Assembly: GCA_965552055.1 (NCBI GenBank)
Contig: CBEVQO010000002.1
Location: 96,001 to 160,000 of the forward strand
DNA: 64,000 nucleotides
Reading direction: 5' to 3'
Origin: an uncultured bacterium
GTDB lineage: Bacteria > Hydrothermota > UBA3073 > NMUJ01 > CBEVQO01
In this document: positions 10,800-34,949 of the stretch, in pieces
How the letters are laid out: each line of letters begins with the position of its first letter
How positions within the stretch are numbered: the first letter of the stretch is position 1
Notes under the pieces: model-generated
Seen by the model: only the letters and a program-made list of their open reading frames with translations
What the model was told of the DNA's origin: nothing
Database searches by the model: none
Position numbers and translations under genes: made by a program

Positions 10800-12776
10800 T
10801 TATAAAATTTTTAGGATATTTTTCACTTTTGTAAGTCCTTCTTTTGCTTTATCGTAATGTGGGTCAATTTCAAGTGCTTTCTCAAACGCCATCTTCGCCT
10901 CTTCATACCTGCCCATCCCAAATAATGCTTCGCCCTTCCATCTCCATGCGATTTCGGCATCCTTCTCGGGATTTAATTTAATAAATTTCTCTGCTGTTTG
11001 AAGAGCTTCTTCATATTCTCCCAGCAAACAGCATGCTTCTGCAAGACCAAGCCAGCCATCGGGCAACATGGGATTCAATTCAACAACCCTGCAAAATGCC
11101 TCTTTCATCTCTTTGTATTTCTCCATATATCTATAAGTCCAGCCAAGTTCTGCATAAATCTCCCATTTATCACCTTCATATTTTAATGCTTCTTTAAAAG
11201 ATTTCTCTGATTCTTCGTAGTTTCTTAATTCAAAGAAAACTCTTCCTTTGTAAAACCATGCTGTTGAGTGCTCTGGCTTCATTTCGGTTACTTTATCGAG
11301 TATTTCAAGTGCTTTTTCAAATTCGCCAATTTCAAATAATGCCCTTCCTTTTATAAAAAGTGCCCTTACATCTTTTTCATCATTTTTTAATATTTCGTCC
11401 GCTATTTCAATTGCGCTCCAGTATTTTTTAAGTCCGATAAACGCACTTGCTTTGAGATGAAGTGCTTCCATATTTTTCTCTTTTTCAAGAACCGCATTAC
11501 ATAATTTTATCACTGATTGGTAATCTTTTGTCTCTTTCAACATAAGTTCTGCTTCTCTGATTATTGCATCTTTGCATGCTGGGTCAATCTTCCTTGCTTT
11601 CCTAAAAGCATTTATTGCCTTTTTATTTTCACCCATCTCTTCCAGCACTTTTCCAAGATAATACCAGTAAACGGGATTTTTCTCATCGTCTTCTATAGCT
11701 TTTTCTATACAATATTTTGCTTCCTTATAATTTCCTTCTTCCATGTATTCGATTGCATCCGAGAAAATCGTTGAAGCCGAATATTCTTCTTCTGGCAATT
11801 CTATTTTCTCCTTTATTATTTTATCTGATGGATTGCCGAAATGAGCATATCCGCACCATACTATTGACCTCTTTCTATAAAATTCATTGCGAAGTTCCAG
11901 AAGTATATGTCCTATTGTTTCGCCTTCCAGCATCTTTCTGTAAAATTTTACAGCAAAATTTGCACTATCATGTGAGGGAATTTTAAAAAATGAACCTATA
12001 TAATGTCTCACACCTGCTTCAACAAATCCTTTCGCAATATCAAAAGAAGTTTCACATGCATTTGCAAATATGAGGAAAACTTTTTCTAAAGGTAAATCTT
12101 TAACATCTTCCGCTTTTAACTTCTCTCCTTTGTAAAGTTTCCAGCCATCTTTTTCCGCATGCCCTATGTAATGAATTATGTTATATTTAAATAGATTCGC
12201 TTTGATTTCCTGTTTTGATGCCGTAAATCCGCCTCGCAAATCAAGTGATTTAATTCTTTTCTTTTTCTTCAATCTGCTTAATCTGTTGATGATTTCAATT
12301 GTTTCCAATTTTGCATCTTTTTCTATATCTCTATCTTCTGTTGGATTTTTTATTATAAGCATTTTTAAGGGTGGGTAAATTTTTTCGAATTTTCTTTCTC
12401 TTTTTATTCTTATAATGCGTGCAATTTGGAATTTAAGTCCCCAGAATTCATCATCATATATGATTTCATAAGGAATTTGTAAAAGCCCCTCTTCAACTTC
12501 AAAAAGCAATTTGCTTCCTTCTCTCAATCTTTTAAAAGCGGGTTCAAATTCTTTAAACATAACTTTAAATAAAGTTTTGCCAATAGATTTTATTTCCTCT
12601 GTAAACTCATCAAAATCTTTGCCCGGTATTACAATATTACATTTTTCATAAAATTTTTCGCAAATTTCCTTTATATTTTCTATTTTTATTTTTTTCTCGG
12701 TAATTCCTGCGTATCGGTGGATTTTAGGTCGCACAAGTATATAATCGTCGATTTTAAAAAGATGAATTTCTTTCAC
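10800..12776 (-). CDS. CHAT-domain (caspase-like) protease with C-terminal TPR array
   Basis: LQIPYE, IIHYIGHA (catalytic His), FANACET (catalytic Cys), FAVKFY, YAHFGNP, followed by many TPR repeats. Confidence 0.9.
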   Translation of the reverse strand: MKEIHLFKIDDYILVRPKIHRYAGITEKKIKIENIKEICEKFYEKCNIVIPGKDFDEFTEEIKSIGKTLFKVMFKEFEPAFKRLREGSKLLFEVEEGLLQIPYEIIYDDEFWGLKFQIARIIRIKRERKFEKIYPPLKMLIIKNPTEDRDIEKDAKLETIEIINRLSRLKKKKRIKSLDLRGGFTASKQEIKANLFKYNIIHYIGHAEKDGWKLYKGEKLKAEDVKDLPLEKVFLIFANACETSFDIAKGFVEAGVRHYIGSFFKIPSHDSANFAVKFYRKMLEGETIGHILLELRNEFYRKRSIVWCGYAHFGNPSDKIIKEKIELPEEEYSASTIFSDAIEYMEEGNYKEAKYCIEKAIEDDEKNPVYWYYLGKVLEEMGENKKAINAFRKARKIDPACKDAIIREAELMLKETKDYQSVIKLCNAVLEKEKNMEALHLKASAFIGLKKYWSAIEIADEILKNDEKDVRALFIKGRALFEIGEFEKALEILDKVTEMKPEHSTAWFYKGRVFFELRNYEESEKSFKEALKYEGDKWEIYAELGWTYRYMEKYKEMKEAFCRVVELNPMLPDGWLGLAEACCLLGEYEEALQTAEKFIKLNPEKDAEIAWRWKGEALFGMGRYEEAKMAFEKALEIDPHYDKAKEGLTKVKNILKIL

Positions 12777-16278: not shown

Positions 16279-16941
16279 TTAAAGTTTTTCTAATAAAATA
16301 TCAAAGCGCGCAATTATACTTTTTTCTTTTCTAATTTTAATGGTATAAACTTTTTTCTCAAAAAGTAAAGTTACAGGTTCTTTTGTCAATGTAGCGATTA
16401 GATTTCCATTTGCAAATAATAATGCTTCTGCATCTTCTATTGGTTTATTTTCTTCTTTGTCCTTTATTTCAATTAACTTCAGATTTATTTTATCATCTTT
16501 TGTCTGTACATCGAGTGTAACTTTTATCTTTTCTGTTTCGCTCTCAATTTTCCATGCGTTTGGCAGTTTTTTACCGCTCCGGGTAGTGATAAATGCTCTT
16601 TCTTCTATATGGGTGCTTCCGTATAACTGGCGTGTTGCTATCTGAAACAGCTTTATGGATAACAAAAGATGCAGGACAGTTGAACACATTTCTTTTTTCT
16701 TCTCTCTTTCCAGATATTTCTTTAAACTTTTCATTTCCATCACTTTGCGAAAACATGCATCACATTCTGTAAGATGCTTCTCAAACACTTCACGCAACTC
16801 ATCCGGCAGAGTGCCATCAACATATCCTGCTATCCAGTGTTCGTCATACTCTTTACAATCGGGTATGGGCTCCGTTTTTCTCATCTCTCTCAATGCCCTT
16901 AAGAGCCATTCAATATCATCGTTGTCAAAATCAGGACACAT
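16279..16941 (-). CDS. Zinc-finger (zf-HC2/ZAS) anti-sigma factor 1
   Basis: YVDGTL...FEKHLTECDAC (HxxxCxxC); overlaps the upstream sigma gene. Confidence 0.8.
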   Translation of the reverse strand: MCPDFDNDDIEWLLRALREMRKTEPIPDCKEYDEHWIAGYVDGTLPDELREVFEKHLTECDACFRKVMEMKSLKKYLEREKKKEMCSTVLHLLLSIKLFQIATRQLYGSTHIEERAFITTRSGKKLPNAWKIESETEKIKVTLDVQTKDDKINLKLIEIKDKEENKPIEDAEALLFANGNLIATLTKEPVTLLFEKKVYTIKIRKEKSIIARFDILLEKL

Positions 16942-17833
16942 TTTCCCTCCTTTTTATATTTTTGAATTTCTTTTCAATCTCCTTTCTTACTCTGTGAATA
17001 ATCTGGTCAACATAATTACGATTTATTCCTAAAAACTCTGCTATTTGTTCATAGCAGGGTCTCCTTGCACTCTCCGGGACAGCTTTCCCCTCCTTTAAAT
17101 ACTTTATTATCTGCCATTCTATTTTTGCATCCATTAAAACGAGTTCATCGGTTATTTCATCAATCCTTTTCTTTGTCAATTTCATTATGGTTAAAACTTC
17201 TCTCCTATCTTCAAGTATATTGAATTCAGGCCATAACCACAATTTAAAGACGATTCTTTTAAGAGGGGGAAGTTTCTCTATTTCTTTTCTTATTTCCCTG
17301 CAAGTCATTTCCGTTATAATTTTATTTTCTTCGGTTAGATAGCCAATCAGTCCTTTTGGAGGCTTTGTTTTAGCTCTGGTAAACTTCTTTTCTAACTCTT
17401 GCTCTCTTTTGCTTTTCTTCTCCGGAGACAATCTTTCTTCAATCTCTTCTAAATTTTTTTCATCCATTTTAATTTCGCGTAATTTTCTTATAAGAATGCG
17501 TGGAAGCCAATTTATAAAAATTCCTGTTATCCATGTTGTGAATTTAGCTTTTGTTCTGTGATTTGGATCGTATCGTTTTATTATTTCAAGATTTGACAAT
17601 AAATAATTATAAAGGAAATCTCTGCAAATATCTTCTTTTTCATCAGAATCTAACTCCTCGAGTATCTGGAATCCCATCTCTTCTTTTCCTCTGAGTTTAC
17701 TCAAAATAATGCGTTCAATAAGTCCCTTTAAAACAGAGATATACTTGTCGAGCGCAAAAATTGCTTTTTTGCAGGCATCTAAATCACAATTATGACACTT
17801 TTCTAATTGCTCTCGTGAAACTAACTCATTCAT
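16931..17833 (-). CDS. ECF-type sigma70 factor 1
   Basis: Region-2-like EDICRDF..RYDP..KAKFTTWITGIFIN; region-4-like IEKLPP..YEQIAEFLGINRNYVDQIIHRVRKEI. Confidence 0.75.
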   Translation of the reverse strand: MNELVSREQLEKCHNCDLDACKKAIFALDKYISVLKGLIERIILSKLRGKEEMGFQILEELDSDEKEDICRDFLYNYLLSNLEIIKRYDPNHRTKAKFTTWITGIFINWLPRILIRKLREIKMDEKNLEEIEERLSPEKKSKREQELEKKFTRAKTKPPKGLIGYLTEENKIITEMTCREIRKEIEKLPPLKRIVFKLWLWPEFNILEDRREVLTIMKLTKKRIDEITDELVLMDAKIEWQIIKYLKEGKAVPESARRPCYEQIAEFLGINRNYVDQIIHRVRKEIEKKFKNIKRRENVS

Positions 17834-18203: not shown

Positions 18204-18596
18204 TCAATTAAAATCATCTACTTCGTCCTTTGTGTTTAACTTTACAAAATCTTTTAATTCTTTCTCTTCTGCTTCTTCCAGTAAAACATAACAATTTCTG
18301 TTCTTGACTTTTTTAAATTCTAACAATGCAATTTCGGCAACATCAAAGAATTTCTGGAGCCCGCTGTAAATCCTCTCTGCCTCTTCTTTTATCCTTTGAG
18401 GAACTCTCTCTGGATAGGCACACATTATTCGCACCATTTGATTTAAATCCTGCAAAAATTTTACAGGAATAACCAGAACATCATATCTCACAAATTCTCT
18501 TTTTTCATTTAACATTATTAAAATATGATAACCCAGCAATTTACTCAATATCTTCATTGTATTTTTAAATGAACCTCCACTTTTTTCAATCCACAT
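18204..18596 (-). CDS. Hypothetical protein
   Basis: 130 aa; SD GGGGAGGT; overlaps the end of the ClpX-like gene. Confidence 0.6.
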   Translation of the reverse strand: MWIEKSGGSFKNTMKILSKLLGYHILIMLNEKREFVRYDVLVIPVKFLQDLNQMVRIMCAYPERVPQRIKEEAERIYSGLQKFFDVAEIALLEFKKVKNRNCYVLLEEAEEKELKDFVKLNTKDEVDDFN

Positions 18597-19716
18597 ATCT
18601 ACCTCCCCTTTTAGATTTGATTTTTACATTTAATTCGCCATTTTTTACATCGACAATTATTTTGCCTTCTTTTTGCTGACCGAATATTTCAAATGACATT
18701 TCTTCGAGATGACGCATTATAACGCTTTCTATCGCTCTTGCCCCTGTCTGACGCCTTACAGCTTCTTCTACAATGAAATCTTCTGCACGGGGAGTAATAC
18801 GAATCTCAAATCCTTCTTCCTGAAATTCGTTTTTCACCTCCTTCAGTTTCAAATGCAATATTTCTTTTAATGTCTTTTTATCAAGTGGCTCAAAAACAAT
18901 AATTCTCTGAAAGCGGGCAATGAGTTCTGGCAGAAATCCATAAGATTGAAACTTTGTTACATCTTCGGCGGTATACTGGTCTATTTCGTATGCTATTTTA
19001 TTTTCCACACTTTTTATTTCTTTTAAGAAACCTATTTCCTTTTTAACACTGTGGGTTAAAAATCCGCTAAATGCTCCTATTGCGAAAAATAAGATATTTG
19101 AAGTATCGATGTGACCTTCGAGTGACAAATCGTCTCTTCCGTAACTTACTTTAGAGCCTTCAACGAGTTTTAGTAATTCGCGCTGAACCCCGTATCCTGA
19201 TACATCCTTTGTCGTACCAGCACCGGCAAATCTAATATTGCTGTGACAACCCGCTATCTTGTCAAATTCATCTATCGCAACTACTCCGAATTTCGCAAGA
19301 AGCACATTGCCATGTGCAGCCTCTATCAATTTGTAAGGTATATTTAACACACTTTCGCCAACATAACCAGTTTCGGAATATTTCGTGATATCAATTATCA
19401 CATAAGGTAGTTTTAAAATTTTACCGAATAACAGTTCTATTATATAGGTCTTGCCGCATCCAGTTGGTCCCATCAATAAATAATTTGTCTTTGGTGGTAG
19501 ATTTTTCTTTTCTCCGCTTAATATTTTCTTTACTCTTTTGAAATGGCGATATGCAGCTACGCACATAGCTTTGCGAGCACGCTCCTGACCTCTGTAGCCA
19601 AGTTCCTCCAGCTTTTGATAAAGCTCCTGAGGAGTATAAAGCGGAGCAGACAGGAGTTTATTTATCGCAGCCTCATTTGCCTCAATATGTTCTCTATATC
19701 GATAAAATGGCTTCAT
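18586..19716 (-). CDS. ClpX-like AAA+ unfoldase lacking the N-terminal zinc-binding domain
   Basis: GQERARK, LLMGPTGCGKT, ETGYVGE, IDEFDKI, DVSGYGVQRELLKLVEG, IGF loop, GFLPELIARF, TGARAI. Confidence 0.85.
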   Translation of the reverse strand: MKPFYRYREHIEANEAAINKLLSAPLYTPQELYQKLEELGYRGQERARKAMCVAAYRHFKRVKKILSGEKKNLPPKTNYLLMGPTGCGKTYIIELLFGKILKLPYVIIDITKYSETGYVGESVLNIPYKLIEAAHGNVLLAKFGVVAIDEFDKIAGCHSNIRFAGAGTTKDVSGYGVQRELLKLVEGSKVSYGRDDLSLEGHIDTSNILFFAIGAFSGFLTHSVKKEIGFLKEIKSVENKIAYEIDQYTAEDVTKFQSYGFLPELIARFQRIIVFEPLDKKTLKEILHLKLKEVKNEFQEEGFEIRITPRAEDFIVEEAVRRQTGARAIESVIMRHLEEMSFEIFGQQKEGKIIVDVKNGELNVKIKSKRGGRYVD

Positions 19717-19731
19717 TTCACCTCCCCTTAT

Positions 19732-19761
19732 ATTATTACCTATTTCTCAAGTTTTCTTACA
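19732..19761 (-). promoter_or_regulatory. Island-specific bipartite motif TGTAAGAAAA-N13-TAAT (putative ECF promoter), copy 1
   Basis: TGTAAGAAAA cttgagaaatagg TAATAAT just upstream of the ClpX-like SD/ATG. Confidence 0.65.
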
Positions 19762-22593
19762 TAACTTTTCTAAATTTCCAAACAAATTTGTTTTCCTTTC
19801 TTTGATGGAAGAATGATGTATCTCCAGTAGTTTTGAAATATCTTCTTCTGTGATCAAATAAACACGATTGCGTGCCCTTGTTACGGCAGTATAAAGCATC
19901 TCACGGGTTAAAAAACTTTTGCTTAATCCTTTTGGAATTACAACTATCACATTGTCAAAATCACTACCCTGACTCTTATGGATGGTAATCGCATAAGCGT
20001 AATCAAGTTGTGAGAATTCATTTCTCTTATATTTAACCTCCCGATTTAAACAATGAAAATATATTTTCCGCTTTTTCACATAGATTTCTTTATCTTTCAC
20101 ATAGCCTATCATACCATTGAAAACCCATTTATCATAATTATTTACATTTTGGATAACCTTATCCTTTATTTTTTCTCTACACCAGAAATCATTCACATAC
20201 ATTTCGTCCTTCAATTCATCTGGTATAAATTTTGATTCACTCCTTATAAAATGATTTATCAATAAAGATGAAATTCTTCCTTTTTGACGGGTAGGTGTCA
20301 AAATTTCGAGTGCATCTTTTATGACCTCAAATTCAAAGAAATCGCCTTCACCATACTCTTCCATTATAACTTCTATTGCTTTTTCGATTTCTCCTTTTAT
20401 ATCTCCTTTCCCTATATGTTTAACAGTAACAACGGGTTTTCCTTCCTCATTTTTCAAACTATAAATCTCACCTTTAATTTCGTCACCGATTTTTATCCGT
20501 TCTTTACTTTGCATCATTTCTCTGAGAACTTTAATTTTCTCTCTTTCGGGTACACTTTCGAGGAAAAGTTTTGAGAATTCGGTTATTTTCTTTTGATTTG
20601 CTCTATAAATTTTACTCAATTCAACTATTTTGCCTTTTCCTGTATTTTTAAAGAAATTGTAAATATCATGAAATGGCTTGCCTGCCTCTACCGGGGGCAA
20701 TTGATTTACATCTCCCACAAATATAATGTGTTCCAGTGTATGCTTTTTTATTATCCTGAATAAATCTGCAAGCAATGATGTGCCAACCATTGATGCCTCA
20801 TCAATTATGAGTGCATGTATAGACAATTTTTTATCTTCTGGTATTCTCCTTTTTAAAACATAATAATCAAAATCAAAAAATTCTTTCATCTCTTGGGCAA
20901 TCAATCTATGAATTGTTGTTGCTTTTTCTCCTCCTATTTCTTTATTTATTTTTACAGTTGCTTTACCTGTTGGAGCCACGATTCTAACTTTTGCAAGTCC
21001 ATTTATCTGCAATGTATTTACTATTGCCCCAATTGTATGTGTCTTACCGCTCCCAGCAGGTCCAGTCAAAATACTAACATTAGAACTCAATACCTCTCTT
21101 ACTGCTGATATTTGCTCCAAATCAAATTTATCATCTTCGGGATACCTGTAGCCGATAGTGCCTTTTTTGAGTAATTCCTTTATCATTTCTTCTATTAGTT
21201 TTTCATCTTCTTTTACATCCTTCAAAGTAAAAATAATATCTTCTTCTCTTCTCTCAATTTCTACCTTTTCTCTGATGTAATCTTCGTATTGAGTAATCTT
21301 TTCAATAAAAGTATCAATGTCCATCGAAAGTTTTTCTCCTTTTTCCTTTAAATCGTTTAATGTAATAGAGGTATTGCCTTTTTTGAGTTCCTCTTTTAAA
21401 ATCTTTATGAGTAAAGCCCTTATTCTTTCTTTTGAGTAAGGAGAATAAAATCTTTTTCTGTATTTTTGCTCCCAGTTGTCTATCTCATCAAATGTTATAG
21501 GATGAATATCTTCTTTTGGATTGTAAATCATTTCTTCGCACAATAAATAAGGATTATTCTTTTCAACGAGATTTTTAATGTTTATAAAATTCTTTCTGAT
21601 TTGTTTCTTTATCTCTACCAGTTGTGATGGTAAAATTTCGTAATAAATTGCATAATCGTATAAGAATTTATGGAAATTATCGTTTTTGTGTATGATTTTT
21701 TCAAGTTCTTTTCTCATTTCTTCTTCACCTTCTTCTCCTTTTTCTTCCCATTTTGTAATGAATTGGGAGTATATTTCTCCAAAAGGCTCTTTGCCTTCCT
21801 TCAGCACATACATAACCGCTGGTAAGCCCGGATAAATAAATTTTCTGCCCTCAAGTTCCTCCAGTGCCATCTGAATCCGTGCAGGAAATTCTTCAAGCCT
21901 TAAAGCATCTTTTCTGAAATCCATATCTTCAATATATGCTTTTAGTTTCCCATCATCGTATTGTAAGATTTTCTCCAATTTTTTCAACGCCTCTTTAAGT
22001 ATAACACATGAAATTTCTGTTACAACGAAGTTTGCCATATTGCTAAAATATAACTTCCATTCGGGTCTAATATCAAGAACAAGGTCATCGGGAAAATCCT
22101 TGCCATATTCTTCAAAGTATTCTATCATCTCCTGATACGGAAGGATAAAAATTATATCTTCGGGCTTGAACTCAAAATCTATGAGTAACCCCTTTTTATC
22201 TTCTTTTAATTTTATATCGGAAGCTTTTGCACATCCTACTATTATTCTATTTTCGGAAAGTGGATTTTCACGGCAATAAAAGAATAAATAAGTACCTTTA
22301 CCCATCCTGCTTAAAAATTGATAAGTTTCTTCTTTTCTTAATCCTTTTATTCCGAAAAATTTACTGCTTCCTTTAAATTCACTGAAGAGTCCTATTTCCC
22401 ATACACAAGCTTCCCAGTTTAATGGAGGTTTTTTATCGGCAAATTCACCGCATCTTAATCTATCTCTGCTATATTTTCCGCGTCTTATATGCGAAAATGA
22501 TTCGCAATATTTATTCGCTAGCGGATTCCTGCAAATCCGCCCATTCCAGCCACTATCATGCCAGCATATAAGTATGGTAAGACATTTCATCAT
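19747..22593 (-). CDS. RecD-like SF1B helicase with N-terminal WHDxGWNGRIC domain (no C-terminal nuclease)
   Basis: GPAGSGKT, APTGKA, TIHRL, IIDEASM, GDVNQLPPV, FNGMIG, AITIHKSQGSD, YTAVTRA; SD GGAGG before ATG 22593. Confidence 0.88.
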   Translation of the reverse strand: MMKCLTILICWHDSGWNGRICRNPLANKYCESFSHIRRGKYSRDRLRCGEFADKKPPLNWEACVWEIGLFSEFKGSSKFFGIKGLRKEETYQFLSRMGKGTYLFFYCRENPLSENRIIVGCAKASDIKLKEDKKGLLIDFEFKPEDIIFILPYQEMIEYFEEYGKDFPDDLVLDIRPEWKLYFSNMANFVVTEISCVILKEALKKLEKILQYDDGKLKAYIEDMDFRKDALRLEEFPARIQMALEELEGRKFIYPGLPAVMYVLKEGKEPFGEIYSQFITKWEEKGEEGEEEMRKELEKIIHKNDNFHKFLYDYAIYYEILPSQLVEIKKQIRKNFINIKNLVEKNNPYLLCEEMIYNPKEDIHPITFDEIDNWEQKYRKRFYSPYSKERIRALLIKILKEELKKGNTSITLNDLKEKGEKLSMDIDTFIEKITQYEDYIREKVEIERREEDIIFTLKDVKEDEKLIEEMIKELLKKGTIGYRYPEDDKFDLEQISAVREVLSSNVSILTGPAGSGKTHTIGAIVNTLQINGLAKVRIVAPTGKATVKINKEIGGEKATTIHRLIAQEMKEFFDFDYYVLKRRIPEDKKLSIHALIIDEASMVGTSLLADLFRIIKKHTLEHIIFVGDVNQLPPVEAGKPFHDIYNFFKNTGKGKIVELSKIYRANQKKITEFSKLFLESVPEREKIKVLREMMQSKERIKIGDEIKGEIYSLKNEEGKPVVTVKHIGKGDIKGEIEKAIEVIMEEYGEGDFFEFEVIKDALEILTPTRQKGRISSLLINHFIRSESKFIPDELKDEMYVNDFWCREKIKDKVIQNVNNYDKWVFNGMIGYVKDKEIYVKKRKIYFHCLNREVKYKRNEFSQLDYAYAITIHKSQGSDFDNVIVVIPKGLSKSFLTREMLYTAVTRARNRVYLITEEDISKLLEIHHSSIKERKTNLFGNLEKLCKKT

Positions 22594-22624
22594 AGCGGCA
22601 CCTCCATTACTATCTTCTCTCCTT

Positions 22625-23323
22625 TCAAATATCCAAAAATTTTGTCGTTCGTTTGACAGCGTTTTCAATCTCTCTCATATCCTGTGCTGTTAGCGGAGGA
22701 GAATATATACCCCTTACCACCCACAATCCCGATTTTCTTATTTCCCATTTCGGAGAATGTAACCCAAGCCAGTTAGAGGAAGGTTTACATAGCGAACAAT
22801 TTGCCAAAGTACCTATGAGCTTGTTTTCTATCTCTTTCCTGTTGCTTTCATTATCCCATAAAATAAACCTGAAACTGAATTGAGTGCGCAATATTTGGGT
22901 TATTTTTTCTTCTATTTCTTTCTCTTTTTCAATATCTCTCAAGTGACCGAATCTCTCTCGATTTTTTCTTGGAGTAAAATCAATTTCCCATACTTCGAGA
23001 TATGGGTCGTTTTCTCGATTCAACAATGCCCTGCCTAAATTTTTTCTAAAGATACTTCTATCGGAAGGTTTCGGTTTATTTCTATTCCATTCTGTTCTCC
23101 TATTTATAAGAAAATGGTCAGCGATGCGTGATTTAAAATTTTCTTTCTTATGTGTGCCAACACGAACAATCCTCATCTTTTCGCCACCATGTCCCCATTT
23201 CTCTCCTTCTTCATAGAAAAAATAAATTCCACTATCGGGTAGTGTAACAATATCAAAAGGATACTTTATTACAGGTAGTGTCTCCAGAATTTCATGTAAC
23301 CATTTACATTTTTCTTCTATCAT
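22625..23323 (-). CDS. Putative GIY-YIG-like nuclease
   Basis: SGIYFF...IVRVGT...FKSRIADH...EIENKLI pattern. Confidence 0.6.
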   Translation of the reverse strand: MIEEKCKWLHEILETLPVIKYPFDIVTLPDSGIYFFYEEGEKWGHGGEKMRIVRVGTHKKENFKSRIADHFLINRRTEWNRNKPKPSDRSIFRKNLGRALLNRENDPYLEVWEIDFTPRKNRERFGHLRDIEKEKEIEEKITQILRTQFSFRFILWDNESNRKEIENKLIGTLANCSLCKPSSNWLGLHSPKWEIRKSGLWVVRGIYSPPLTAQDMREIENAVKRTTKFLDI

Positions 23324-23347: not shown

Positions 23348-23554
23348 TTATTCCTGTTCGACTTTGGGTTCCCAATTTCCGCACACTTCGTTATCTCTCC
23401 TTTTATCCTGCCAGTATCCGCACCAGCCCTCTGCAGATGTTTCGCCCTCTTCACAGGTAACTTCAATATACCCTGTCGCAGGATTGTAGTAACTGCCACT
23501 AAAATATTTGCAAGTAGCACAACATCTTATATCTGGTCTGATTGAATAACGCAT
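23348..23554 (-). CDS. Small Cys-rich (Zn-binding?) protein
   Basis: CCATCKYF...C...GWC...C..WE; SD GGAGGGG; coupled to the AGOG stop codon. Confidence 0.6.
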   Translation of the reverse strand: MRYSIRPDIRCCATCKYFSGSYYNPATGYIEVTCEEGETSAEGWCGYWQDKRRDNEVCGNWEPKVEQE

Positions 23555-24330
23555 TACCCCTCCTTTTTTATTTTTACAAGTTTTTCACCTATTTCCTTTA
23601 TCCCCAATTTTTCAAAATATTTAATGATTTCGCTCGGTGTCAGGGGTGCTATCTGCCATATTAAACTATCAAGATGCAACATTGTTATTCTTTTATCGTT
23701 TTTCCTGATTTCAGTTAAAATCTCTGTCCATACTTGCCTTATTTCTTCATCCGATTGTATGCCAAATAACTCTTTGGTAAATTTTCTGACCCTTGAATCA
23801 ACCGGAATGGGAATCGGTGTAAAATCAAAATTGTGCTCACCTTTTATTAACAGTGCGATACCGAGGCATTTCATCGCAAAACAAATTGTTTTCGCAGATT
23901 TATTCTGCCCCATTATAAAAGCAAGTTTATTCCATATATTCAGGAAATCTGTTGCAATACTTTGTGGAGTGCTTTCCCATATTTCTCTTGCAAGTTCACT
24001 TCTAAAATATTTTTCAAGGCGATTTAATTTTGCTGTTCTCATTCTTTCATTTTCGTAGAATCTTGCAAGATAAAGATGAAGTTCTTTTAATGTGGAAGGT
24101 GCAGGTAGATTCTGGAGTTTCTGTCTTATCACGGGCCAGTATGCTATTTCTGCTTTGCCTTTTAGCTGATAATCATTCAGTCCCACAGCGAGCATAAGAT
24201 TTGCGAATGCACCGAATTTGTATCTGTCAGCAAATATGTGAAGATGCTTCCACTCGGGCTCATTATGTACAATGCTGTCCCATGCATTATAAGGTATTTG
24301 ACCCAATATTTTGGCAATTTCTCCTTTCAT
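23554..24330 (-). CDS. N-glycosylase/DNA lyase, AGOG family (archaeal-type 8-oxoG glycosylase)
   Basis: DYQLKGKAE..YW, AKTICFAMK, IPIPVDSRV, HLDSLIW. Confidence 0.8.
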   Translation of the reverse strand: MKGEIAKILGQIPYNAWDSIVHNEPEWKHLHIFADRYKFGAFANLMLAVGLNDYQLKGKAEIAYWPVIRQKLQNLPAPSTLKELHLYLARFYENERMRTAKLNRLEKYFRSELAREIWESTPQSIATDFLNIWNKLAFIMGQNKSAKTICFAMKCLGIALLIKGEHNFDFTPIPIPVDSRVRKFTKELFGIQSDEEIRQVWTEILTEIRKNDKRITMLHLDSLIWQIAPLTPSEIIKYFEKLGIKEIGEKLVKIKKEG

Positions 24331-24342: not shown

Positions 24343-27300
24343 TTATTTAAATTTTATTTCTTTTACTTTTTTATCCGATACATCGTAAAACTCAATCACT
24401 TCTAATCGAGGGAATTTTTCTTTTGTTATTTTACTCACATCGCAATCTTCATCAACTTTTAATCTTTTTATATTTTTAGGTAATTTTTCGGGGTCAATTG
24501 AACTAATTTTTATCGGCCAAACTCTCCTCATATCAACTTCTTCTACTTCATCAAGTTTACTTAAATCAATATCATGCGCACCTATTCTTTTAACACTTCG
24601 AGGTATAACATCGTAGGTTAACTTCTTTAAAGGTGTTTTCCTAACATCAAGTTCTTCAAGTTCTTCCATTCCGCTCAAATCTATTTCTCTCAAATTTTCA
24701 CATCTATAAGCATCTATCCTTTTCACTCTCTTTGGTAACTTTCTGTAATCAAGAGAGGTTATGGAAGTCCAGCTTACATCAAGTTCTTCAATCTCTTCAA
24801 GTTCACTCAAATCTATATCACCTGCTCCTATTTTCTTTACACTACGCGGTATAACATAATAGGTCAACTTCTTTAAAGGGGTTTCCCTTACATCAAGCAC
24901 TTCAAGTCCTTCCACCCCGCTCAAATCTATTTCTCTCAAATTTTCGCACCGCCAAGCATCTATCCTTTTCACTCTCTTTGGTAACTTCCTGTAATCAAGA
25001 GAAGTTATGGAAGTCCATCTTACATCAAGCTCTTCAAGTTCTTCCATTCCACTCAAATTCATTTCTCTCAGATTTTTGCATCCGGAAGCATTTATCCGCC
25101 TCACTCTCTTTGGTAACTTTCTGTAATCAAGAGAGGTTATGGAAGTCCTGCTTACATCAAGTTCTTCAATCTCTTCGAGTTCACTTAAATCTATATCACC
25201 TGCTCCTATTTTCTTCACACTGCGGGGTATAACATCATAGGTCAACTTCTTTAAAGATGTTTCCCTAACATCAAGCTCTTCGATTCCTTCAATCCTGCTC
25301 AAATCTATTTCTTTCAGATTTTCGCACTCATAGACATCTATCCTTTTCACTCTCTTTGGCAATTTCCTGTAATCAAGAGAGGTTACGGAAGTCCTGCTTA
25401 TATTAAGTTCCGCAAGTCCTTCCATTCCACTCAAATCTATTTCTCTTAGATTTTGGCAGTAAGAAGCATCTATCCTTTTTACTTTCTCTGGTAACTTTCT
25501 GTAATCAAGAGAGGTTATGGAAGTCCAGCTTACGTCAAGTTCTTCAAGTTCTTCAAGTTCACTCAAATCTATATCACCTGCTCCTATTTTCTTTACACTG
25601 CGGGGTATAACATCATAGGTCAACTTCTTTAAAGGTGTTTCCTTCACATCAAGTTTTTCAAGCCCTTCAATTCCACTCAAATCTATTTCTCTCAAATTTT
25701 TACACTTGGAGGCATATATCATTTTCACTCTCTTTGGCAATTTATTAAGAGAAGTTATGGAAGTCCTGCTTACATCAAGTTCTTCAAGCCCTTCCATCCT
25801 ACTCAAATCTATTTTTATCAGATTTTCGCACCGACGAGCATCTATCCTTTTAACTTTCTTTGGTAATTTCTTGTAATTAAGAGAAGTTATGGAAGTCCTA
25901 CTCACATCAAGTACTTCAAGTTCTTCCATTCTGCTCAAATCTATTCCTTTCAAATTTTCGCAGTCGGAAGCATTTATCATTTTCACTCTTTTCGGTAACT
26001 TCCTGTAATCAAGAGAGGTTATGGGAGTCTCATTTACATAAAGTTCTTCAAGTTCTTCCATTCCGCTCAAATCTATTTCTCTCAAATTTTCGCATTCAGG
26101 GGCATGCATCATTTTCACTCTCTTTGGTAACTTCCTGTAATCAAGAGAGGTTATGGGAGTCCAGCTTACATCAAGCACTTCAAGTTCTTCAAGTTCACTC
26201 AAATCTATATCACCTGCTCCTATTATCTTCACACTTCGAGGTATAACATCATAGGTCAGCTTCTTTAAATGTGTTTCCCTCACATCAAGCACTTCAAGTC
26301 CTTCAATTCCACTCAAATCTATTTCTCTCAGATTTTTGCAGTAAGAAGCATCTATCATTTTCACTCTCTTTGGTAACTTTCTGTAATCAAGAGAGGTTAT
26401 GGAAGTCACGCTTACATCAAGTTCATCAAGTTCTTCGAGCTTTTCAATTCCACTCAAATCTATTTCTCTGAGATTTTCGCACCACGAAGCATCTATCTTT
26501 TTCACTCTTTTTGGTAATTTCTTGTAATCAAGAGAGGTTATGGAAGTCCTGCTTACATCAAGTTCTTCAATCTCTTCAAGTTCACTTAAATCTATATCAC
26601 CTGCTCCTATTTTCTTCACACTGCGAGGTATAACATCATAGGTCAACTTCTTTAAAGGTGTTTCCCTCACATCAAGTTCTTCAAGCCCTTCAATTCCGCT
26701 CAAATCTATTTCTTTCAAATTTTCGCAGTCGGAAGCATTTATCTTTTTCACTCTTTTTGGTAATTTCCGGTAATCAAGAGAGGTTATGGAAGTCCCGCTT
26801 ACATTAAGTGTTTCAAGTTCTTTCATTCCACTCAAATCTATTTCTCTGAGATTTTTGCATCCAGAAGCATCTATCCATTTCACTCTCTTTGGTAATTTCT
26901 TAAGAGAGGTTATGGAAGTCCTACTCACATTAAGCACTTCGAGTTCTTCCACCCCGCTCAAATCTATTTCTTTCAAATTTTCGCAGTCGGAAGCATTTAT
27001 CTTTTTCACTCTTTTTGGTAATTTCCGGTAATCAAGAGAGGTTATGGAAGTCCCGCTTACATTAAGTGTTTCAAGTTCTTTCATTCCACTCAAATCTATT
27101 TCTCTGAGATTTTTGCATCCAGAAGCATCTATCCATTTCACTCTCTTTGGTAATTTCTTAAGAGAGGTTATGGAAGTCCTACTCACATTAAGCACTTCGA
27201 GTTCTTCCATTCCGCTCAAATCTATTTCTTTCAAATTTTCGCACCACGAAGCATCTATCTTTTTCACTCTCTTTGGTGACTTTCTGTAATCAAGAGAGGT

Positions 27301-27702
27301 TATGGAAGTCCCGCTTACATTAAGTTCTTCAAGTTCTTCAAATTCACTCAAATCTATTTCACCTGCTCTTATTCTCTTCACACTTCGAGGTATGACATCA
27401 CAGGTCAACTTCTTTAAAGGTGTTTCTCTCACATCAAGTTCTTCAAGTTCTTCCATTCCGCTCAAATCTATTTCTCTCAAATTTTCGCATCCATAAGCAT
27501 CTATCTTTTTCACTCTCTTTGGTAACTTTCTGTAATCAAGAGAGGTTATAGAAGTCTCGCTCACATCAAGTTCCTTAATTTCTTCGAGTTTATGCAGGTC
27601 ATCGCTTTCATACACTTCTGCATCTTCTATACGCAATTCTCTAATGAATTCATCCCATACCACTTTGACTCCCCACTTTTTCAAAAATTCTTCCATTTTC
27701 AT
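24343..27702 (-). CDS. Large cytoplasmic leucine-rich repeat protein
   Basis: 1119 aa of alternating LEELDVSxTSITSLDYRKLPKRVK and xIDAxxCxNLREIDLSG units; no signal peptide. Confidence 0.9.
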   Translation of the reverse strand: MKMEEFLKKWGVKVVWDEFIRELRIEDAEVYESDDLHKLEEIKELDVSETSITSLDYRKLPKRVKKIDAYGCENLREIDLSGMEELEELDVRETPLKKLTCDVIPRSVKRIRAGEIDLSEFEELEELNVSGTSITSLDYRKSPKRVKKIDASWCENLKEIDLSGMEELEVLNVSRTSITSLKKLPKRVKWIDASGCKNLREIDLSGMKELETLNVSGTSITSLDYRKLPKRVKKINASDCENLKEIDLSGVEELEVLNVSRTSITSLKKLPKRVKWIDASGCKNLREIDLSGMKELETLNVSGTSITSLDYRKLPKRVKKINASDCENLKEIDLSGIEGLEELDVRETPLKKLTYDVIPRSVKKIGAGDIDLSELEEIEELDVSRTSITSLDYKKLPKRVKKIDASWCENLREIDLSGIEKLEELDELDVSVTSITSLDYRKLPKRVKMIDASYCKNLREIDLSGIEGLEVLDVRETHLKKLTYDVIPRSVKIIGAGDIDLSELEELEVLDVSWTPITSLDYRKLPKRVKMMHAPECENLREIDLSGMEELEELYVNETPITSLDYRKLPKRVKMINASDCENLKGIDLSRMEELEVLDVSRTSITSLNYKKLPKKVKRIDARRCENLIKIDLSRMEGLEELDVSRTSITSLNKLPKRVKMIYASKCKNLREIDLSGIEGLEKLDVKETPLKKLTYDVIPRSVKKIGAGDIDLSELEELEELDVSWTSITSLDYRKLPEKVKRIDASYCQNLREIDLSGMEGLAELNISRTSVTSLDYRKLPKRVKRIDVYECENLKEIDLSRIEGIEELDVRETSLKKLTYDVIPRSVKKIGAGDIDLSELEEIEELDVSRTSITSLDYRKLPKRVRRINASGCKNLREMNLSGMEELEELDVRWTSITSLDYRKLPKRVKRIDAWRCENLREIDLSGVEGLEVLDVRETPLKKLTYYVIPRSVKKIGAGDIDLSELEEIEELDVSWTSITSLDYRKLPKRVKRIDAYRCENLREIDLSGMEELEELDVRKTPLKKLTYDVIPRSVKRIGAHDIDLSKLDEVEEVDMRRVWPIKISSIDPEKLPKNIKRLKVDEDCDVSKITKEKFPRLEVIEFYDVSDKKVKEIKFK
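26696..27243. repeat. Near-perfect 258-bp tandem duplication within the LRR gene
   Basis: Sequence from 26701 recurs at 26959 (86 codons). Confidence 0.85.
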
Positions 27703-27715: not shown

Positions 27716-28402
27716 TTATAATGTTGTGAGGTCTAATTTTATTTTCAGTAAAATTTCTTTTTCTTTTCTTATGATGCATAGGAAACTCTTTTTCTCAATT
27801 GGGAAAGTTACCTCTTTTTCACCCACCGCTATGAGATTGGCATCTTCATACACCTCAAACACAAAATCTTTAATTTCTTCTTCCTTCTCTTTATCCTTAA
27901 CCTTTTCCACTATTAATTTTATTTTGCCATCTAAATTTACAAATTTTAAAGTTGCATCTACTTTTTTTGAAGTTACTTCATATATGCTTTCCCTAAGCGT
28001 TGCTGTCCTGTGCTTGTGAGGTCCTCCTCGCAGTGCACGACGCCTTGCCTTCATTCTAACCTTTGCGGAAATGTTCCATAGATTAACAATGTTTAAAAAA
28101 TATGCTCCACGGCGTGTTATTAAAAAGGCAATCACAGGTAGTTTCGCAAGATTCTTTATCCTTTCTTTTTCTTCAGCCGATAATTTCATTTCTTCATCCC
28201 AGCAAAAATCTATAACCCTCTGTAAACAATAATCGCAAACCTCAAGATGACTGATGAATTGCAGATGTTGATAAAGAGGAAGTTTTCCTTTTAAAAATTT
28301 CACAATATAATCATCATCGTATTTATCACATTTTCTGGATAATGCCCTTTCTCTGTAAACAGAAGATAGCCATTGGAGTGCCTTTTCGAACTCGTCCTTC
28401 AT
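27716..28402 (-). CDS. Zinc-finger (zf-HC2/ZAS) anti-sigma factor 2
   Basis: FISHLEVCDYC; C-terminal domain similar to anti-sigma 1 (KDKE..NLIA..IRKEK). Confidence 0.78.
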   Translation of the reverse strand: MKDEFEKALQWLSSVYRERALSRKCDKYDDDYIVKFLKGKLPLYQHLQFISHLEVCDYCLQRVIDFCWDEEMKLSAEEKERIKNLAKLPVIAFLITRRGAYFLNIVNLWNISAKVRMKARRRALRGGPHKHRTATLRESIYEVTSKKVDATLKFVNLDGKIKLIVEKVKDKEKEEEIKDFVFEVYEDANLIAVGEKEVTFPIEKKSFLCIIRKEKEILLKIKLDLTTL

Positions 28403-29079
28403 CCTATCTCCTTTTCAACTTCTTTCCATAATTTCTCCAATTCTTTTTTGATGTCGGTGAGAATCCTGCTCACATAATTTGGAGTTTTGTTGACTATGCG
28501 GGATATCCGGCGGGGAGGGAGACCCTCCCCTTCTAAATAACTTTGAATCCATACCCTCGCTATGAACTTCTTTGCGCCACGAAGCTTCTGCAGGTAGGCG
28601 TCAACTTTTGTTCGAAAGAGTTTCAGTTTCTTTTCAAATCTTTTTTCTTCCTCTTCCTGTATTATCTCACCTTCAAGGTCATCCGTTACTTTTGAAGAGA
28701 TTAAAGATTCTACATCACTATCTTCGTCTTTTGCTAAATCAGTAAATGGTATTATCTGTGGTTCTTTCTTTTCTTTACGAAGCTGGTTCATAAGCCAGTA
28801 TTTGAAGCATTTATTACTCCATGCGAGAAATGAGCCTTTTTCTGGATTGAATTTTTTAATTTGTTTTCCCATAATGAGATAATAGTACAAGAATCTACAA
28901 ACGAATTCTTCGATTTTTGTGGAAGAAAAGTAAATGTTCTTTGAGATAAGCAATCGCTTGCATCTTTTCCAGAACAGCTCTATTACTTTTTCGATATCAC
29001 CAAACATTTTGGCACAAGATTCATCTTTACACCTATAACATTCCATTGCGTATTTTTTGATTATAATGTCTTTCACCAA
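28399..29079 (-). CDS. ECF-type sigma70 factor 2
   Basis: KFNPEKGSFLAWSNKCFKYWLMNQLRK (region 2); ISRIVNKTPNYVSRILTDIKKEL (region 4). Confidence 0.72.
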   Translation of the reverse strand: MVKDIIIKKYAMECYRCKDESCAKMFGDIEKVIELFWKRCKRLLISKNIYFSSTKIEEFVCRFLYYYLIMGKQIKKFNPEKGSFLAWSNKCFKYWLMNQLRKEKKEPQIIPFTDLAKDEDSDVESLISSKVTDDLEGEIIQEEEEKRFEKKLKLFRTKVDAYLQKLRGAKKFIARVWIQSYLEGEGLPPRRISRIVNKTPNYVSRILTDIKKELEKLWKEVEKEIG

Positions 29080-30264
29080 TCATTTTATACCCGCTGTGGA
29101 TATGTCAAGCAATTTTTCGTCTATCTCGAATCCAAGATGATTTCTCATTCTGTATTTTTTGATGACATTTTCGCCCCTCTTTAACCCATAAAGGTCTGCC
29201 AGTGTCCATCTTTCTTTATATTTGAGGAATTTTATTTTGTCTTCGCATCCCCAGTATTCGAGCAATTTTTTCGCTTCATCCTGAGTATGGGGACGCAATT
29301 CAATAGCTGCAAATGTCCTGCCTGCTCTCATAAATGCAGGGTCTATCTCCCTTTCGATATTGGTGGTTATTATGATGCGTGAAGGTATCTGCACTATTCC
29401 GCCTGTCAGTGAAAGGAGGTCACCTGTAACATCAATCCCTGTTTCTTTGCGTGGCTTTACAAATTTATCGAGGTCATCGAGCAAAATTATCATACCATCT
29501 GCTACTTCTTCAAGGAAAGATAAAGATTTCAAAACAGGTTCCTGACGCACCACGAGCAATTCGTTTTTGCCTGCGAATCTGCAAACATGATGCGCAAACC
29601 AGCTTTTGCCAGTGCCACATTCACCAAACAGGAAAAGAACAATCTCATTCGAATTAAGATAATCCTCTATAAACTGCTTTACATCACCATATTTTTCTTT
29701 AATGACAGGATATTTGAGATTCAGCTCTTCTGGTTCATCACAATGCACATATTGTTTGAACCATAATGATTTGGGCTCTCCGAAATCTCGCTCTACAACC
29801 ATAATTTTCACATTTATTCTTATGTATTTGGGTTTGACTTTATCCTTAACTTTGTATTTTTTTAGCCATTTTTCAATTTTCTTTCCAAAGATTTCTTCTG
29901 CTTCTTTACTGCAGAAAAATGCAAAGATATCAACAATTGCTACTTTGTTTTCCGCAACTTCCATTCTGAAGAAACAATTAGCAAATCCTTTAAGAGAAGG
30001 AAATGTCACCATAACATCGTAACCTCGACCTTTATTTACTATTATTTCCCTTTCTTTATCCAGTTTCTTCATCTCCTCATCGAATTCTTTAAAGAATTTC
30101 TCTTCGGAACATGATACCATCATTGAGATTCTTCTCGTAAATAAGTTCTTGTTTGCGTCAAGGAGTTTCAACAGCTTTATCACTCTGTACTGTCTTAAAA
30201 AGCTATTTACAGGCTCAATATCGTCTATATCTAAATTTATCTGAAATTTATCTTTTAGAGTCAT
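29080..30264 (-). CDS. AAA+ ATPase with uncharacterised N-terminal domain
   Basis: GECGTGKS, IILLDD, IIITTN, IDPAFMRAGR. Confidence 0.8.
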   Translation of the reverse strand: MTLKDKFQINLDIDDIEPVNSFLRQYRVIKLLKLLDANKNLFTRRISMMVSCSEEKFFKEFDEEMKKLDKEREIIVNKGRGYDVMVTFPSLKGFANCFFRMEVAENKVAIVDIFAFFCSKEAEEIFGKKIEKWLKKYKVKDKVKPKYIRINVKIMVVERDFGEPKSLWFKQYVHCDEPEELNLKYPVIKEKYGDVKQFIEDYLNSNEIVLFLFGECGTGKSWFAHHVCRFAGKNELLVVRQEPVLKSLSFLEEVADGMIILLDDLDKFVKPRKETGIDVTGDLLSLTGGIVQIPSRIIITTNIEREIDPAFMRAGRTFAAIELRPHTQDEAKKLLEYWGCEDKIKFLKYKERWTLADLYGLKRGENVIKKYRMRNHLGFEIDEKLLDISTAGIK

Positions 30265-30285: not shown

Positions 30286-30864
30286 TCACACAATATTTAA
30301 CCTTAACAAATAGTAATAATCTCCTATTATGCTTAAGCATAAAGCAAATGTATTGATATCATCGGTATCCTTTCCGAACAACTTTGACATAAGTTTAGAA
30401 ATTTCTCTATAATTATATATTTTCTTACCGCGCTTGAAATTATAAATTTCATTCAATTTAACATGTGTAAAAATTGTTTTCTTTGTTAGGATATTCATTA
30501 CAGTTTTAGTTATCCCTGAATGAGTGATTTCAAAATGATATAATTCGTTTTTCTTTTCATCGATATAATAATCGGTAGCGGCTTTTGCAGGCCAGATGAT
30601 AATTGTATTCGTTATCGTTTTTATGATATTTATTCTGGAAACAATGTATTTGAATATCCTTCTTGATAAAATCAATTGGGAGAAACTTCTTACAGGGAGT
30701 ATCCATACGATGACACCTTCTATATTTCCCGAGATTTTATTCTTTTTAAGATAAATTTTGTAATCTTTTTTCATCAGCGGTAGAATCAGAAAATAAAGTA
30801 TTCTTATGAGAACTGTCTCCACAGCTTTAAACAAGTTTGCCATTATAATGTTTTTTAACTTCAT
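30286..30864 (-). CDS. Hypothetical protein
   Basis: 192 aa; SD AAGGAGGGTG. Confidence 0.55.
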   Translation of the reverse strand: MKLKNIIMANLFKAVETVLIRILYFLILPLMKKDYKIYLKKNKISGNIEGVIVWILPVRSFSQLILSRRIFKYIVSRINIIKTITNTIIIWPAKAATDYYIDEKKNELYHFEITHSGITKTVMNILTKKTIFTHVKLNEIYNFKRGKKIYNYREISKLMSKLFGKDTDDINTFALCLSIIGDYYYLLRLNIV

Positions 30865-31142: not shown

Positions 31143-31190
31143 CTCCCCCTCCTTCTTATTATTTTAACGCCCCATCGGAGCAGGCAAAAT

Positions 31191-31742: not shown

Positions 31743-31807
31743 AACCCCCTCCTTCCCCATCGGAGCAGGCAAAATTTACTTTCGATTTTCAAAGAGCTCT
31801 CTCAATT

Positions 31808-32504: not shown

Positions 32505-32535
32505 TTATATTAAACTAAATTACGATTTTCTTACA
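32505..32535 (-). promoter_or_regulatory. Putative ECF promoter, copy 3
   Basis: TGTAAGAAAA tcgtaatttagtt TAATATAA. Confidence 0.6.
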
Positions 32536-33790: not shown

Positions 33791-33802
33791 AATACCTCCT
33801 TT

Positions 33803-34936: not shown

Positions 34937-34949
34937 AACACCCCCCAGC

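What the first reader, a model, noticed from the sequence alone, without database searches (positions are those of the whole stretch)
24343..27702. LRR protein with a fixed scaffold and hypervariable concave-face residues (VLR/NLR-like receptor)
Repeat frameworks are nearly identical, even at DNA level, but the exposed beta-strand positions vary strongly. One unit type shows DVSE/DVRE/NVSG/NVSR/DVSV/DVSW/YVNE/DVRW/DVRK. The other shows DAYG/DASW/DASG/NASD/DASY/HAPE/DARR/YASK/DVYE/DAWR/DAYR. These are the ligand-binding positions of LRRs, rich in W/Y/R. The protein has no signal peptide or effector domain and lies directly downstream of ECF2/anti-sigma 2. Inference: a diversifying intracellular sensor or decoy.
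Basis: partly seen in the sequence, partly recalled or inferred. Interest (0 to 1): 0.78.

Follow-up and report, generated by a model that had tools for sequence, protein, structure and literature searches.

The report
Expanded, shuffled leucine-rich-repeat binding protein
An uncultured bacterium carries a 48-repeat leucine-rich-repeat protein, about eight times the repeat count of its short relatives, whose repeats share a scaffold but differ at the predicted binding face; it likely serves as a fast-changing binder of foreign proteins, a pattern already known from other repeat receptors, and its target is unknown.

Summary
ORF 24343-27702 (-) encodes 1119 aa: an N-cap, 48 LRR units of four types and a C-cap, with no signal peptide or effector domain. 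Amino-acid change concentrates at LRR positions 3, 5, 7 and 8 (dN/dS 0.56 against 0.18 elsewhere, p=8e-4), and 9 of 12 tryptophans lie there. Corrections: scaffolds are 87-90% identical, positions 7-8 lie in the loop after the strand, and positive selection is shown only weakly; a neutral binding face under gene conversion reproduces the mean variation, and only one site (B8) tends to exceed it. It is not VLR-, DGR- or NLR-like in mechanism: no donor cassettes, reverse transcriptase or NTPase module were found. It is the expanded member of a small stand-alone family (five short relatives: four DPANN archaea, one bacterium) that varies at the same positions; the bacterial relative has no sigma or CHAT neighbours. 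Related populations with 98-99% identical flanks show 6-12% divergent repeats and new unit variants. The same pattern appears in 8 of 8 control LRR arrays. Best reading: a cytoplasmic binder or decoy in a candidate defence island, diversified by ordinary repeat recombination.

The parts
24343..27702 (-). LRR gene, 1119 aa, predicted 129 kDa, pI 5.35; stand-alone, no signal peptide or membrane segment
   Evidence: model and fold search
27580..27702 (-). N-cap and first irregular LRR (aa 1-41), shared with the short DPANN and G118 relatives
   Evidence: alignments
24547..27579 (-). 48 LRR units (aa 42-1052): 17 AB pairs and 7 CD pairs; variable positions 3, 5, 7, 8; units are mosaics of each other
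26696..27209 (-). exact 256-nt tandem duplication (26954-27209 and 26696-26951, period 258); recent event or assembly error
24343..24546 (-). C-cap (aa 1053-1119), shared with the short relatives
27716..28402 (-). soluble anti-sigma-like protein 2 (zf-HC2-like motif), 13 nt upstream of the LRR gene
   Evidence: 29% identical to anti-sigma 1, E 2e-15; Atlas clusters with zf-HC2 in 35-41% of members; no Pfam hit itself
28399..29079 (-). ECF-type sigma factor 2 (context)
   Evidence: TIGR02937 E 2.4e-8, below the curated cut-off
29080..30264 (-). AAA ATPase heading the gene run (context)
   Evidence: PF00004 E 3e-8
23554..24330 (-). AGOG-family N-glycosylase/DNA lyase, 12 nt downstream of the LRR gene (context)
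   Evidence: PF09171 E 1.8e-24
22625..23323 (-). PADLOC PDC-M57B-like protein (context)
   Evidence: E 1.4e-64
19747..22668 (-). RecD2-like helicase, PADLOC PDC-S68 (context); a second copy lies in two pieces at 15724-16260 and 13526-15625
   Evidence: E 1.9e-100 and 3e-105
18586..19716 (-). ClpX-like ATPase (context)
   Evidence: NF003745 E 7e-68, below cut-off
16279..17833 (-). ECF sigma 1 (16931-17833) and zf-HC2 anti-sigma 1 (16279-16941) (context)
10800..12776 (-). CHAT-TPR protease, His and Cys motifs present, 11.5 kb downstream of the LRR gene (context)
   Evidence: PF12770 E 1.7e-16; sequence

Best explanation
This is a stand-alone 48-unit LRR protein without signal peptide, predicted to be a cytoplasmic solenoid, that likely arose by about eightfold tandem amplification of a short three-pair ancestor and likely acts as a binder or decoy for fast-changing foreign proteins, its target being unknown. 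Shown: the anatomy, purifying selection on the scaffold, concentration of change at positions 3, 5, 7 and 8, mosaic units, short relatives with the same caps and the same variable positions, and more divergent repeats than flanks in related populations. Inferred: unequal crossing-over and gene conversion between units keep the scaffold alike and re-deal the variable residues; the long concave face offers many small binding patches in one chain; selection for new specificity acts at least on B8; the gene is co-transcribed with the sigma/anti-sigma genes of a candidate defence island and works by sequestering its ligand, not by switching an NTPase.
For: Concave against other positions: Fisher p=8e-4; codon model omega 1.34 against 0.28, B8 5.5 (p=2e-5), A8 2.7 (p=0.02); non-synonymous columns reach nucleotide diversity 0.70 while 12 four-fold sites reach at most 0.34; 9 of 12 Trp at four variable positions. 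LRR fold: InlF Z 21.3, rmsd 5.0, 289 aligned. Mosaic units: A-half and B-half distances uncorrelated (rho 0.085), 481 of 780 site pairs incompatible. Family: five short relatives, 14 different dipeptides at B7-8 in 14 units, 8 aromatic. Populations X1-X3: flanks differ by 1.3-2.1%, LRR pieces by 6.4-11.5%, with unit variants absent from this gene. Neighbours match PADLOC candidate defence families, CHAT and ECF/zf-HC2.
Against: No ligand is known. A neutral face with gene conversion reaches the observed mean concave divergence in 286 of 1161, 342 of 681 and 67 of 354 simulations, and the top-site value in 14, 25 and 39 of them; class omega is not significantly above 1 (p=0.14). The G118 relative sits among housekeeping genes, which gives no support for a defence role of the family. 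Short-read assemblies of such repeats are unreliable (PMC12222747, passages), so unit order here and joints in X1-X3 may be partly artefactual, and the pieces in X1-X3 are not bridged to the island, so they may be paralogues.
Confidence: 0.5

Rival explanations
1. Runaway repeat amplification with a relaxed face: the scaffold is kept for folding, the exposed concave positions drift freely, and no selection for new ligands acts.
For: Simulated neutral face matches the mean variation (P 0.19-0.50); pairwise dN/dS of the face is 0.56; the same pattern appears in 19 of 23 control repeat families.
Against: B8 exceeds the neutral model in two of three settings (1.2% and 3.7% of runs; 11% with rate variation); exposed convex positions are not relaxed in the same way; aromatic residues recur at B7-8 in distant relatives; the 3.36-kb frame is intact.
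Confidence: 0.22
2. Specificity subunit of a split signalling chain: ligand binding to the LRR would activate the CHAT protease, which would cleave the soluble anti-sigma, ClpX would clear it, and the ECF sigma would switch on defence genes.
For: Gene order and 12-13 nt gaps; island holds CHAT-TPR, two sigma/anti-sigma pairs and a ClpX-like gene; a sigma, zf-HC2 protein and TPR-CHAT run occurs in G031; precedent of CHAT-regulated sigma factors (PMC10028731 passages; PMC11506125 listing).
Against: The G031 module has no LRR gene; G118 has the LRR but no CHAT in a 94% complete genome and no sigma neighbours; four relatives are labelled archaeal; the CHAT protein has its own TPR domain and lies 11.5 kb away.
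Confidence: 0.12
3. Inhibitor or immunity protein for a host or rival enzyme, for example the neighbouring glycosylase, nuclease or helicase, in the manner of ribonuclease inhibitor (recalled analogy).
For: Acidic protein (pI 5.35) placed 12 nt before the AGOG gene and upstream of DNA-processing genes.
Against: A fixed partner predicts a conserved face; the face differs from unit to unit and between populations whose flanking genes are 98-99% identical.
Confidence: 0.08
4. Programmed diversification (VLR-like cassette assembly or a diversity-generating retroelement).
For: Several variable codons keep a fixed third base (NNG at A8 and B3, NAT at B5).
Against: No second copy or cassette in the genome by tblastn or blastn; no RVT_1 in a 97% complete genome, control ringing in 3 of 14; adenine columns are not the variable ones (20 of 47 against 28 of 36 guanine columns).
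Confidence: 0.03
5. TALE-like code: the 7-8 dipeptide of each unit would read one base of a nucleic acid.
For: Two adjacent variable residues per near-identical unit.
Against: Four to six positions vary, not two; the protein is acidic; the same positions vary in protein-binding LRRs of plant NLRs and a Roc-COR-TIR protein.
Confidence: 0.03

Closest known systems
Fungal NLR sensors with high internal repeat conservation (Podospora het-d/het-e WD40; ANK and TPR NLRs; PMC4986451 and PMC12222747, passages read)
   Same: Repeats over 80% identical, concerted evolution, repeat shuffling, a few hypervariable positions on the binding face
   Different: Those are NACHT/NB-ARC proteins with effectors and use WD, ANK or TPR repeats; this is a prokaryotic LRR-only protein
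Brown-algal ROCO LRR-GTPases (PMC3341825, passages read) and bacterial LRR-Roc-COR-TIR proteins such as P0160
   Same: Near-identical LRR units with variable concave-face residues; unit gain, loss and shuffling
   Different: No Roc-COR, TIR or other signalling domain in this protein; no exon structure
[quoted passage not shown]
   Same: LRR solenoid with a constant frame and a variable concave surface
   Different: No donor cassettes, no somatic assembly, no secretion or anchor, no Cys-rich caps; about 48 units against about 5-8
IRREKO and 'Bacterial' LRR classes (PMC2946307, passages read); internalin InlF, SDS22 and Leptospira LIC11098 as nearest solved folds
   Same: B units carry the LxxLDL nested motif with a second short strand; A and C units end in an LP motif; intracellular IRREKO proteins are described
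   Different: 22-residue units in an alternating AB/CD super-motif with its own caps; identity to solved structures 10-25%
CHAT-protease/anti-sigma/ECF-sigma defence modules (CASP of type III-E CRISPR, PMC10028731 passages; DdvA/DdvS, PMC11506125 listing)
   Same: The island holds a CHAT-TPR protease, soluble anti-sigma/ECF pairs and a ClpX-like gene
   Different: The passages and listing seen mention no LRR component; the link of this LRR to the module is not conserved in G118 or G031

Membership tests
LRR solenoid proteins | Tandem LxxLxLxxN/C/T repeats folding into a parallel beta-sheet solenoid | tested here: met
   model (mean pLDDT 71, pTM 0.39) matches LRR chains at Z up to 21.3
IRREKO LRR class | 21-residue nested unit LxxLxLxxNxLxxLDLxxxxx with strands on both faces | tested here: inconclusive
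   B units have the nested motif and a second strand at 14-16 but are 22 residues and alternate with LP-ending units
NLR / STAND receptors | Central NACHT or NB-ARC module and N-terminal effector in the same chain | tested here: not met
   Only LRR families; the chain is caps plus repeats. One NACHT match over the cut-off lies on another contig
Roco (LRR-Roc-COR) proteins | Roc-COR tandem after the LRRs | tested here: not met
   None in the protein; no Roc match over the cut-off in the genome
VLR-type assembled receptors | Incomplete germline gene with flanking donor LRR cassettes | tested here: not met
   tblastn and blastn of the 15 contigs find only the gene itself; unassembled repeats cannot be excluded
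VLR-type assembled receptors | Clone-to-clone diversity made within one lineage | not testable with these tools
   Only assembled contigs of three other samples were available
VLR-type assembled receptors | Variable residues on the concave face | tested here: met
DGR target proteins | Reverse transcriptase, template repeat and adenine-specific variation | tested here: not met
High-internal-conservation repeat sensors (HET-E type) | Repeat identity above about 80-85% with concerted evolution | tested here: met
   82-89% DNA identity within types; mosaic units, PHI-like p 0.02-0.06
High-internal-conservation repeat sensors (HET-E type) | Diversifying selection at a few surface codons | tested here: inconclusive
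   B8 omega 5.5-12.9 in the codon model but reached by 1-11% of neutral conversion simulations
High-internal-conservation repeat sensors (HET-E type) | Allelic variation in repeat content among strains | tested here: inconclusive
   Divergent pieces, joints and new unit variants in X1-X3; short contigs, not bridged to the flanks
CHAT/anti-sigma/ECF defence module | Conserved linkage of the gene to CHAT and sigma/anti-sigma genes | tested here: not met
   Linked here but not in G118; module without LRR in G031; loci of the four archaeal relatives could not be fetched

The most novel reading that the evidence does not exclude
A prokaryotic antibody-like receptor: a stand-alone LRR whose binding face is re-dealt across a population by repeat recombination and which acts in trans as the exchangeable sensor of a CHAT-protease, anti-sigma, ClpX, ECF-sigma defence cascade, i.e. 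a split NLR-like system with a transcriptional output.
Probability: 0.12. Interest if true: 0.8.

Novelty: new variant of a known kind. Interest (0 to 1): 0.4.

Why it matters
If the best reading holds, prokaryotes use effector-less LRR binders whose specificity is tuned by repeat amplification and shuffling, and a small family shared by DPANN archaea and a bacterial phylum gives a natural series (3 against 24 repeat pairs) in which to test it. The alternating scaffold with four free positions is also a natural, probably heat-stable binder framework. The pattern itself is common among recently amplified LRR arrays, which limits the surprise; the interest would rise sharply only if a ligand or a link to the sigma cascade were shown.

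Tried and rejected
Full-length orthologues: none among 454 hits of similar length (the 120 listed are at most 33% identical), 35 shorter hits, the best 150 of 9702 representatives (at most 44%), 8 metagenome loci (21-31%), 60 relatives (0 of 60) or phage records (at most 27%). Loci of the DPANN relatives: not found in genome or viral contigs with the patterns used. Relatives of anti-sigma 2 in genome contigs and of sigma 2 in 271 genomes of the phylum: none at the thresholds used; six anti-sigma-1 loci were read and only G031 resembled the island. RT_RNaseH search uninformative because the control did not ring. Promoter scan not above chance (20 against 26.3 expected); no tRNA in the window; island GC 34.7% against 35.7-35.8% in the flanks, so no sign of recent transfer. 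No RNA holder listed. First simulation was mis-calibrated (synonymous divergence too high) and is not used; the class-level test on the framework-only tree did not converge. The complex predictor was not available, so LRR-anti-sigma binding is untested; Foldseek was not available and VIA-align was used instead. Paper searches for a description of this family or of a stand-alone prokaryotic LRR sensor listed none; the library lacks most subscription papers. LypABC (PMC13236601, passages) has no LRR subunit in the passages seen and was dropped as a precedent.
Full report
The gene and its repeats. The window lies on contig C2 of a 2.23-Mb, 97% complete genome of about 36% GC; no call names the lineage. 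ORF 24343-27702 (-) encodes 1119 aa. Parsing gives a 41-aa N-cap, 48 units and a 67-aa C-cap. Units fall into four types, A (17), B (17), C (7) and D (7), always as AB or CD pairs, in the order ABCDABABABABABCDABABCDABABABABCDABABCDABABCDABCD. Higher-order 378-nt blocks of about 89% identity recur and one 256-nt block is duplicated exactly. The single-sequence model (mean pLDDT 71, pTM 0.39) is an LRR solenoid; nearest solved chains are InlF (Z 21.3, rmsd 5.0, 289 aligned), SDS22 (Z 21.0) and LIC11098 (Z 20.3), covering the first 700 residues. There is no hydrophobic segment and no non-LRR domain.

Where the variation lies. Entropy peaks at B8 (2.70 bits), A8 (2.06), B3 (1.90), B7 (1.57) and B5 (1.38); C and D units are nearly constant at 7-8. 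With positions 2, 3, 5, 7, 8, 10 of the LRR consensus defined beforehand as concave (established LRR numbering), minimum-change counts are 46 non-synonymous to 18 synonymous there and 29 to 40 elsewhere (p=8e-4); pairwise dN/dS is 0.56 against 0.18 for core and 0.18 for convex positions. Scaffold identity is 87-90% and about 30% of synonymous sites differ, so the scaffold is under purifying selection, not merely young. In the model positions 3-5 are on the main strand, and 7-8 in the loop behind it (the three 20-aa A units were left out). W, Y and R are 31 of 68 residues at A8, B3, B7, B8 against 124 of 1119 overall.

Selection or release? A codon model on 16 of 17 AB pairs (the exact duplicate dropped) gives omega 0.28 for the framework and 1.34 for the face (not different from 1, p=0.14), with B8 at 5.5 (p=2e-5), A8 2.7 (p=0.02) and B3 2.6 (p=0.04); on a framework-only tree B8 is 12.9 and A8 3.6, but the class-level fit did not converge. 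Non-synonymous columns reach diversity 0.70, while 12 four-fold sites reach at most 0.34; two-fold synonymous sites are more variable than these. Because the units are mosaics (481 of 780 informative site pairs incompatible; A-half and B-half distances uncorrelated, rho 0.085; PHI-like p 0.02-0.06), tree-based tests can mislead. I therefore simulated a neutral face under gene conversion, keeping runs with matching synonymous divergence: the observed mean was reached in 286 of 1161, 342 of 681 and 67 of 354 runs, the top-site value in 14 of 1161, 25 of 681 and 39 of 354. So the face is released from constraint, and positive selection is suggested for B8 only.

No programmed mechanism. tblastn, blastn and a motif scan of all 15 contigs find only this gene. 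No RVT_1 domain was found. Variation is not tied to adenines (20 of 47 A columns variable, 28 of 36 G columns). VLR-like assembly and a retroelement are therefore unlikely; ordinary unequal crossing-over and conversion suffice (inference).

A small family. Searches with the protein found no orthologue, but one hit, P0294, shares the N-cap, AB pair and C-cap. A profile then found P0300, P0220 and the partial P0301, labelled Pacearchaeota and Aenigmatarchaeota by their sources, and, in 1 of 271 other genomes of the phylum, a full-length match in G118 (E 4e-46; four further genomes gave only weak generic matches). The four complete relatives are 247-332 aa with three AB pairs, against 24 pairs here; identities are 33-38%. 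They vary at the same positions: 14 different dipeptides at B7-8 in 14 units, 8 with an aromatic residue; entropy 2.6-2.9 bits at positions 7-8 in the archaeal units. The G118 gene follows a photolyase; I recognised no sigma, anti-sigma or CHAT gene in 39 kb of its contig (by eye; the contig ends 1.4 kb downstream), and the genome (94% complete) has no CHAT match.

Related populations. Three vent or sediment metagenome runs hold the island. Listed contig pieces on the flanking genes differ by 57 of 4542, 82 of 3872 and 14 of 1049 bases; pieces on the LRR gene by 79 of 1229, 75 of 654 and 44 of 651 (from the longest pieces listed, at likeness thresholds 85 and 80). Seven joints connect non-adjacent units. 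A C-type unit with T and G at positions 7-8, absent from this gene, occurs in X1 and X3, and loose ends read by eye as further A- and B-type variants. The last repeats and C-cap are nearly identical in X1 (2 of 250). Caveats: the pieces are 107-302 nt, none of those listed bridges to the anti-sigma gene, so paralogues are possible, and short-read assembly of such repeats is unreliable (PMC12222747, passages).

How special is the pattern? Among 312 fetched proteins, 20 gave 23 repeat families of at least 8 units; the concave positions were more variable than the convex in 19 of 23, and in 8 of 8 with at least 70% internal identity (two of them one cluster), 5 of which peak at position 7 or 8. 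These include TIR-NB-ARC-LRR proteins and an LRR-Roc-COR-TIR protein. The literature describes the same behaviour for fungal NLR repeats (PMC4986451, passages), brown-algal ROCO LRRs (PMC3341825, passages) and VLRs (PMC3900441, passages); bacterial NACHT proteins with LRR sensors are known (10.1101/2022.07.19.500537, passages). Earlier notes of this scan report similar arrays in other genomes (unchecked AI notes). Searches for a description of this family listed none.

Context. Genes from 9706 to 38336 all lie on the minus strand and include CHAT-TPR, two ECF/anti-sigma pairs, a ClpX-like ATPase, two PDC-S68 RecD-like helicases (one in two pieces), PDC-M57B, AGOG and two AAA plus vWA-peptidase pairs. 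The LRR gene is 13 nt behind anti-sigma 2 and 12 nt before AGOG, with no minus-strand terminator-like site between 31300 and 23100, so co-transcription is likely. A sigma, zf-HC2, TPR-CHAT run exists in G031 without an LRR, and CHAT-controlled sigma factors are known (PMC10028731, passages). The cascade is thus plausible on its own, but nothing beyond gene order ties the LRR to it; binding was not tested.

Verdict. Real and well supported as a stand-alone LRR with a constant scaffold and a variable predicted binding face, the expanded member of an apparently undescribed small family. Most likely a binder or decoy for variable foreign proteins, diversified by repeat recombination (0.5); rivals are drift on a relaxed face (0.22), sensor of the CHAT-sigma cascade (0.12), inhibitor of a neighbouring enzyme (0.08), programmed diversification (0.03) and a nucleic-acid code (0.03). 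New variant of a known kind; interest 0.4. Supplementary files of the cited papers were not read; the protein table of PMC2946307 could list related intracellular LRR proteins.

Noticed in passing
window 13526-16260 (-): The second PDC-S68 RecD-like helicase is in two pieces: 15724-16260 matches profile positions 1-79 and 13526-15625 matches about 487-1197; the intact paralogue is 19747-22668.
   Followed up: no
window 32525-38345 (-): Tandem duplication (spacing about 3.4 kb, 71-86% DNA identity) of an AAA ATPase plus DUF2201 vWA-metallopeptidase pair at the head of the island.
   Followed up: no
window 33143-33268: Three 42-nt tandem units inside the vWA-peptidase gene; a contig of run X2 lacks one unit (joint 33162-33205), a repeat-number polymorphism.
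   Followed up: partly
window 31170-31208 and 31755-31793: A 39-nt direct repeat (first 24 nt identical) brackets the 193-aa ORF 31191-31772, as if the gene had been inserted with a duplication.
   Followed up: no
window 30384-30413 (+): A perfect 12-of-12 sigma-70 consensus promoter on the plus strand inside ORF 30286-30864, antisense to the island.
   Followed up: no
window 23554-24330 (-): An AGOG glycosylase, a family that I recall as archaeal, in a bacterial island next to an LRR whose closest relatives are labelled DPANN archaea; possible exchange with archaea, not tested.
   Followed up: no
L035:7396-12853 (G031): ECF sigma, 187-aa protein, 562-aa zf-HC2 protein and TPR-CHAT whose TPR units look internally conserved with variable positions.
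   Followed up: partly
L051:7391-18887 (G084): An LRR gene (501 aa, SDS22-like units) embedded in a run of paralogous genes that share a QRTIGNQAVQ-type N-terminal motif.
   Followed up: no
window 49814-50875 (-): Three tandem small proteins that look like STAS anti-anti-sigma factors downstream of leucyl-tRNA ligase (by eye).
   Followed up: no
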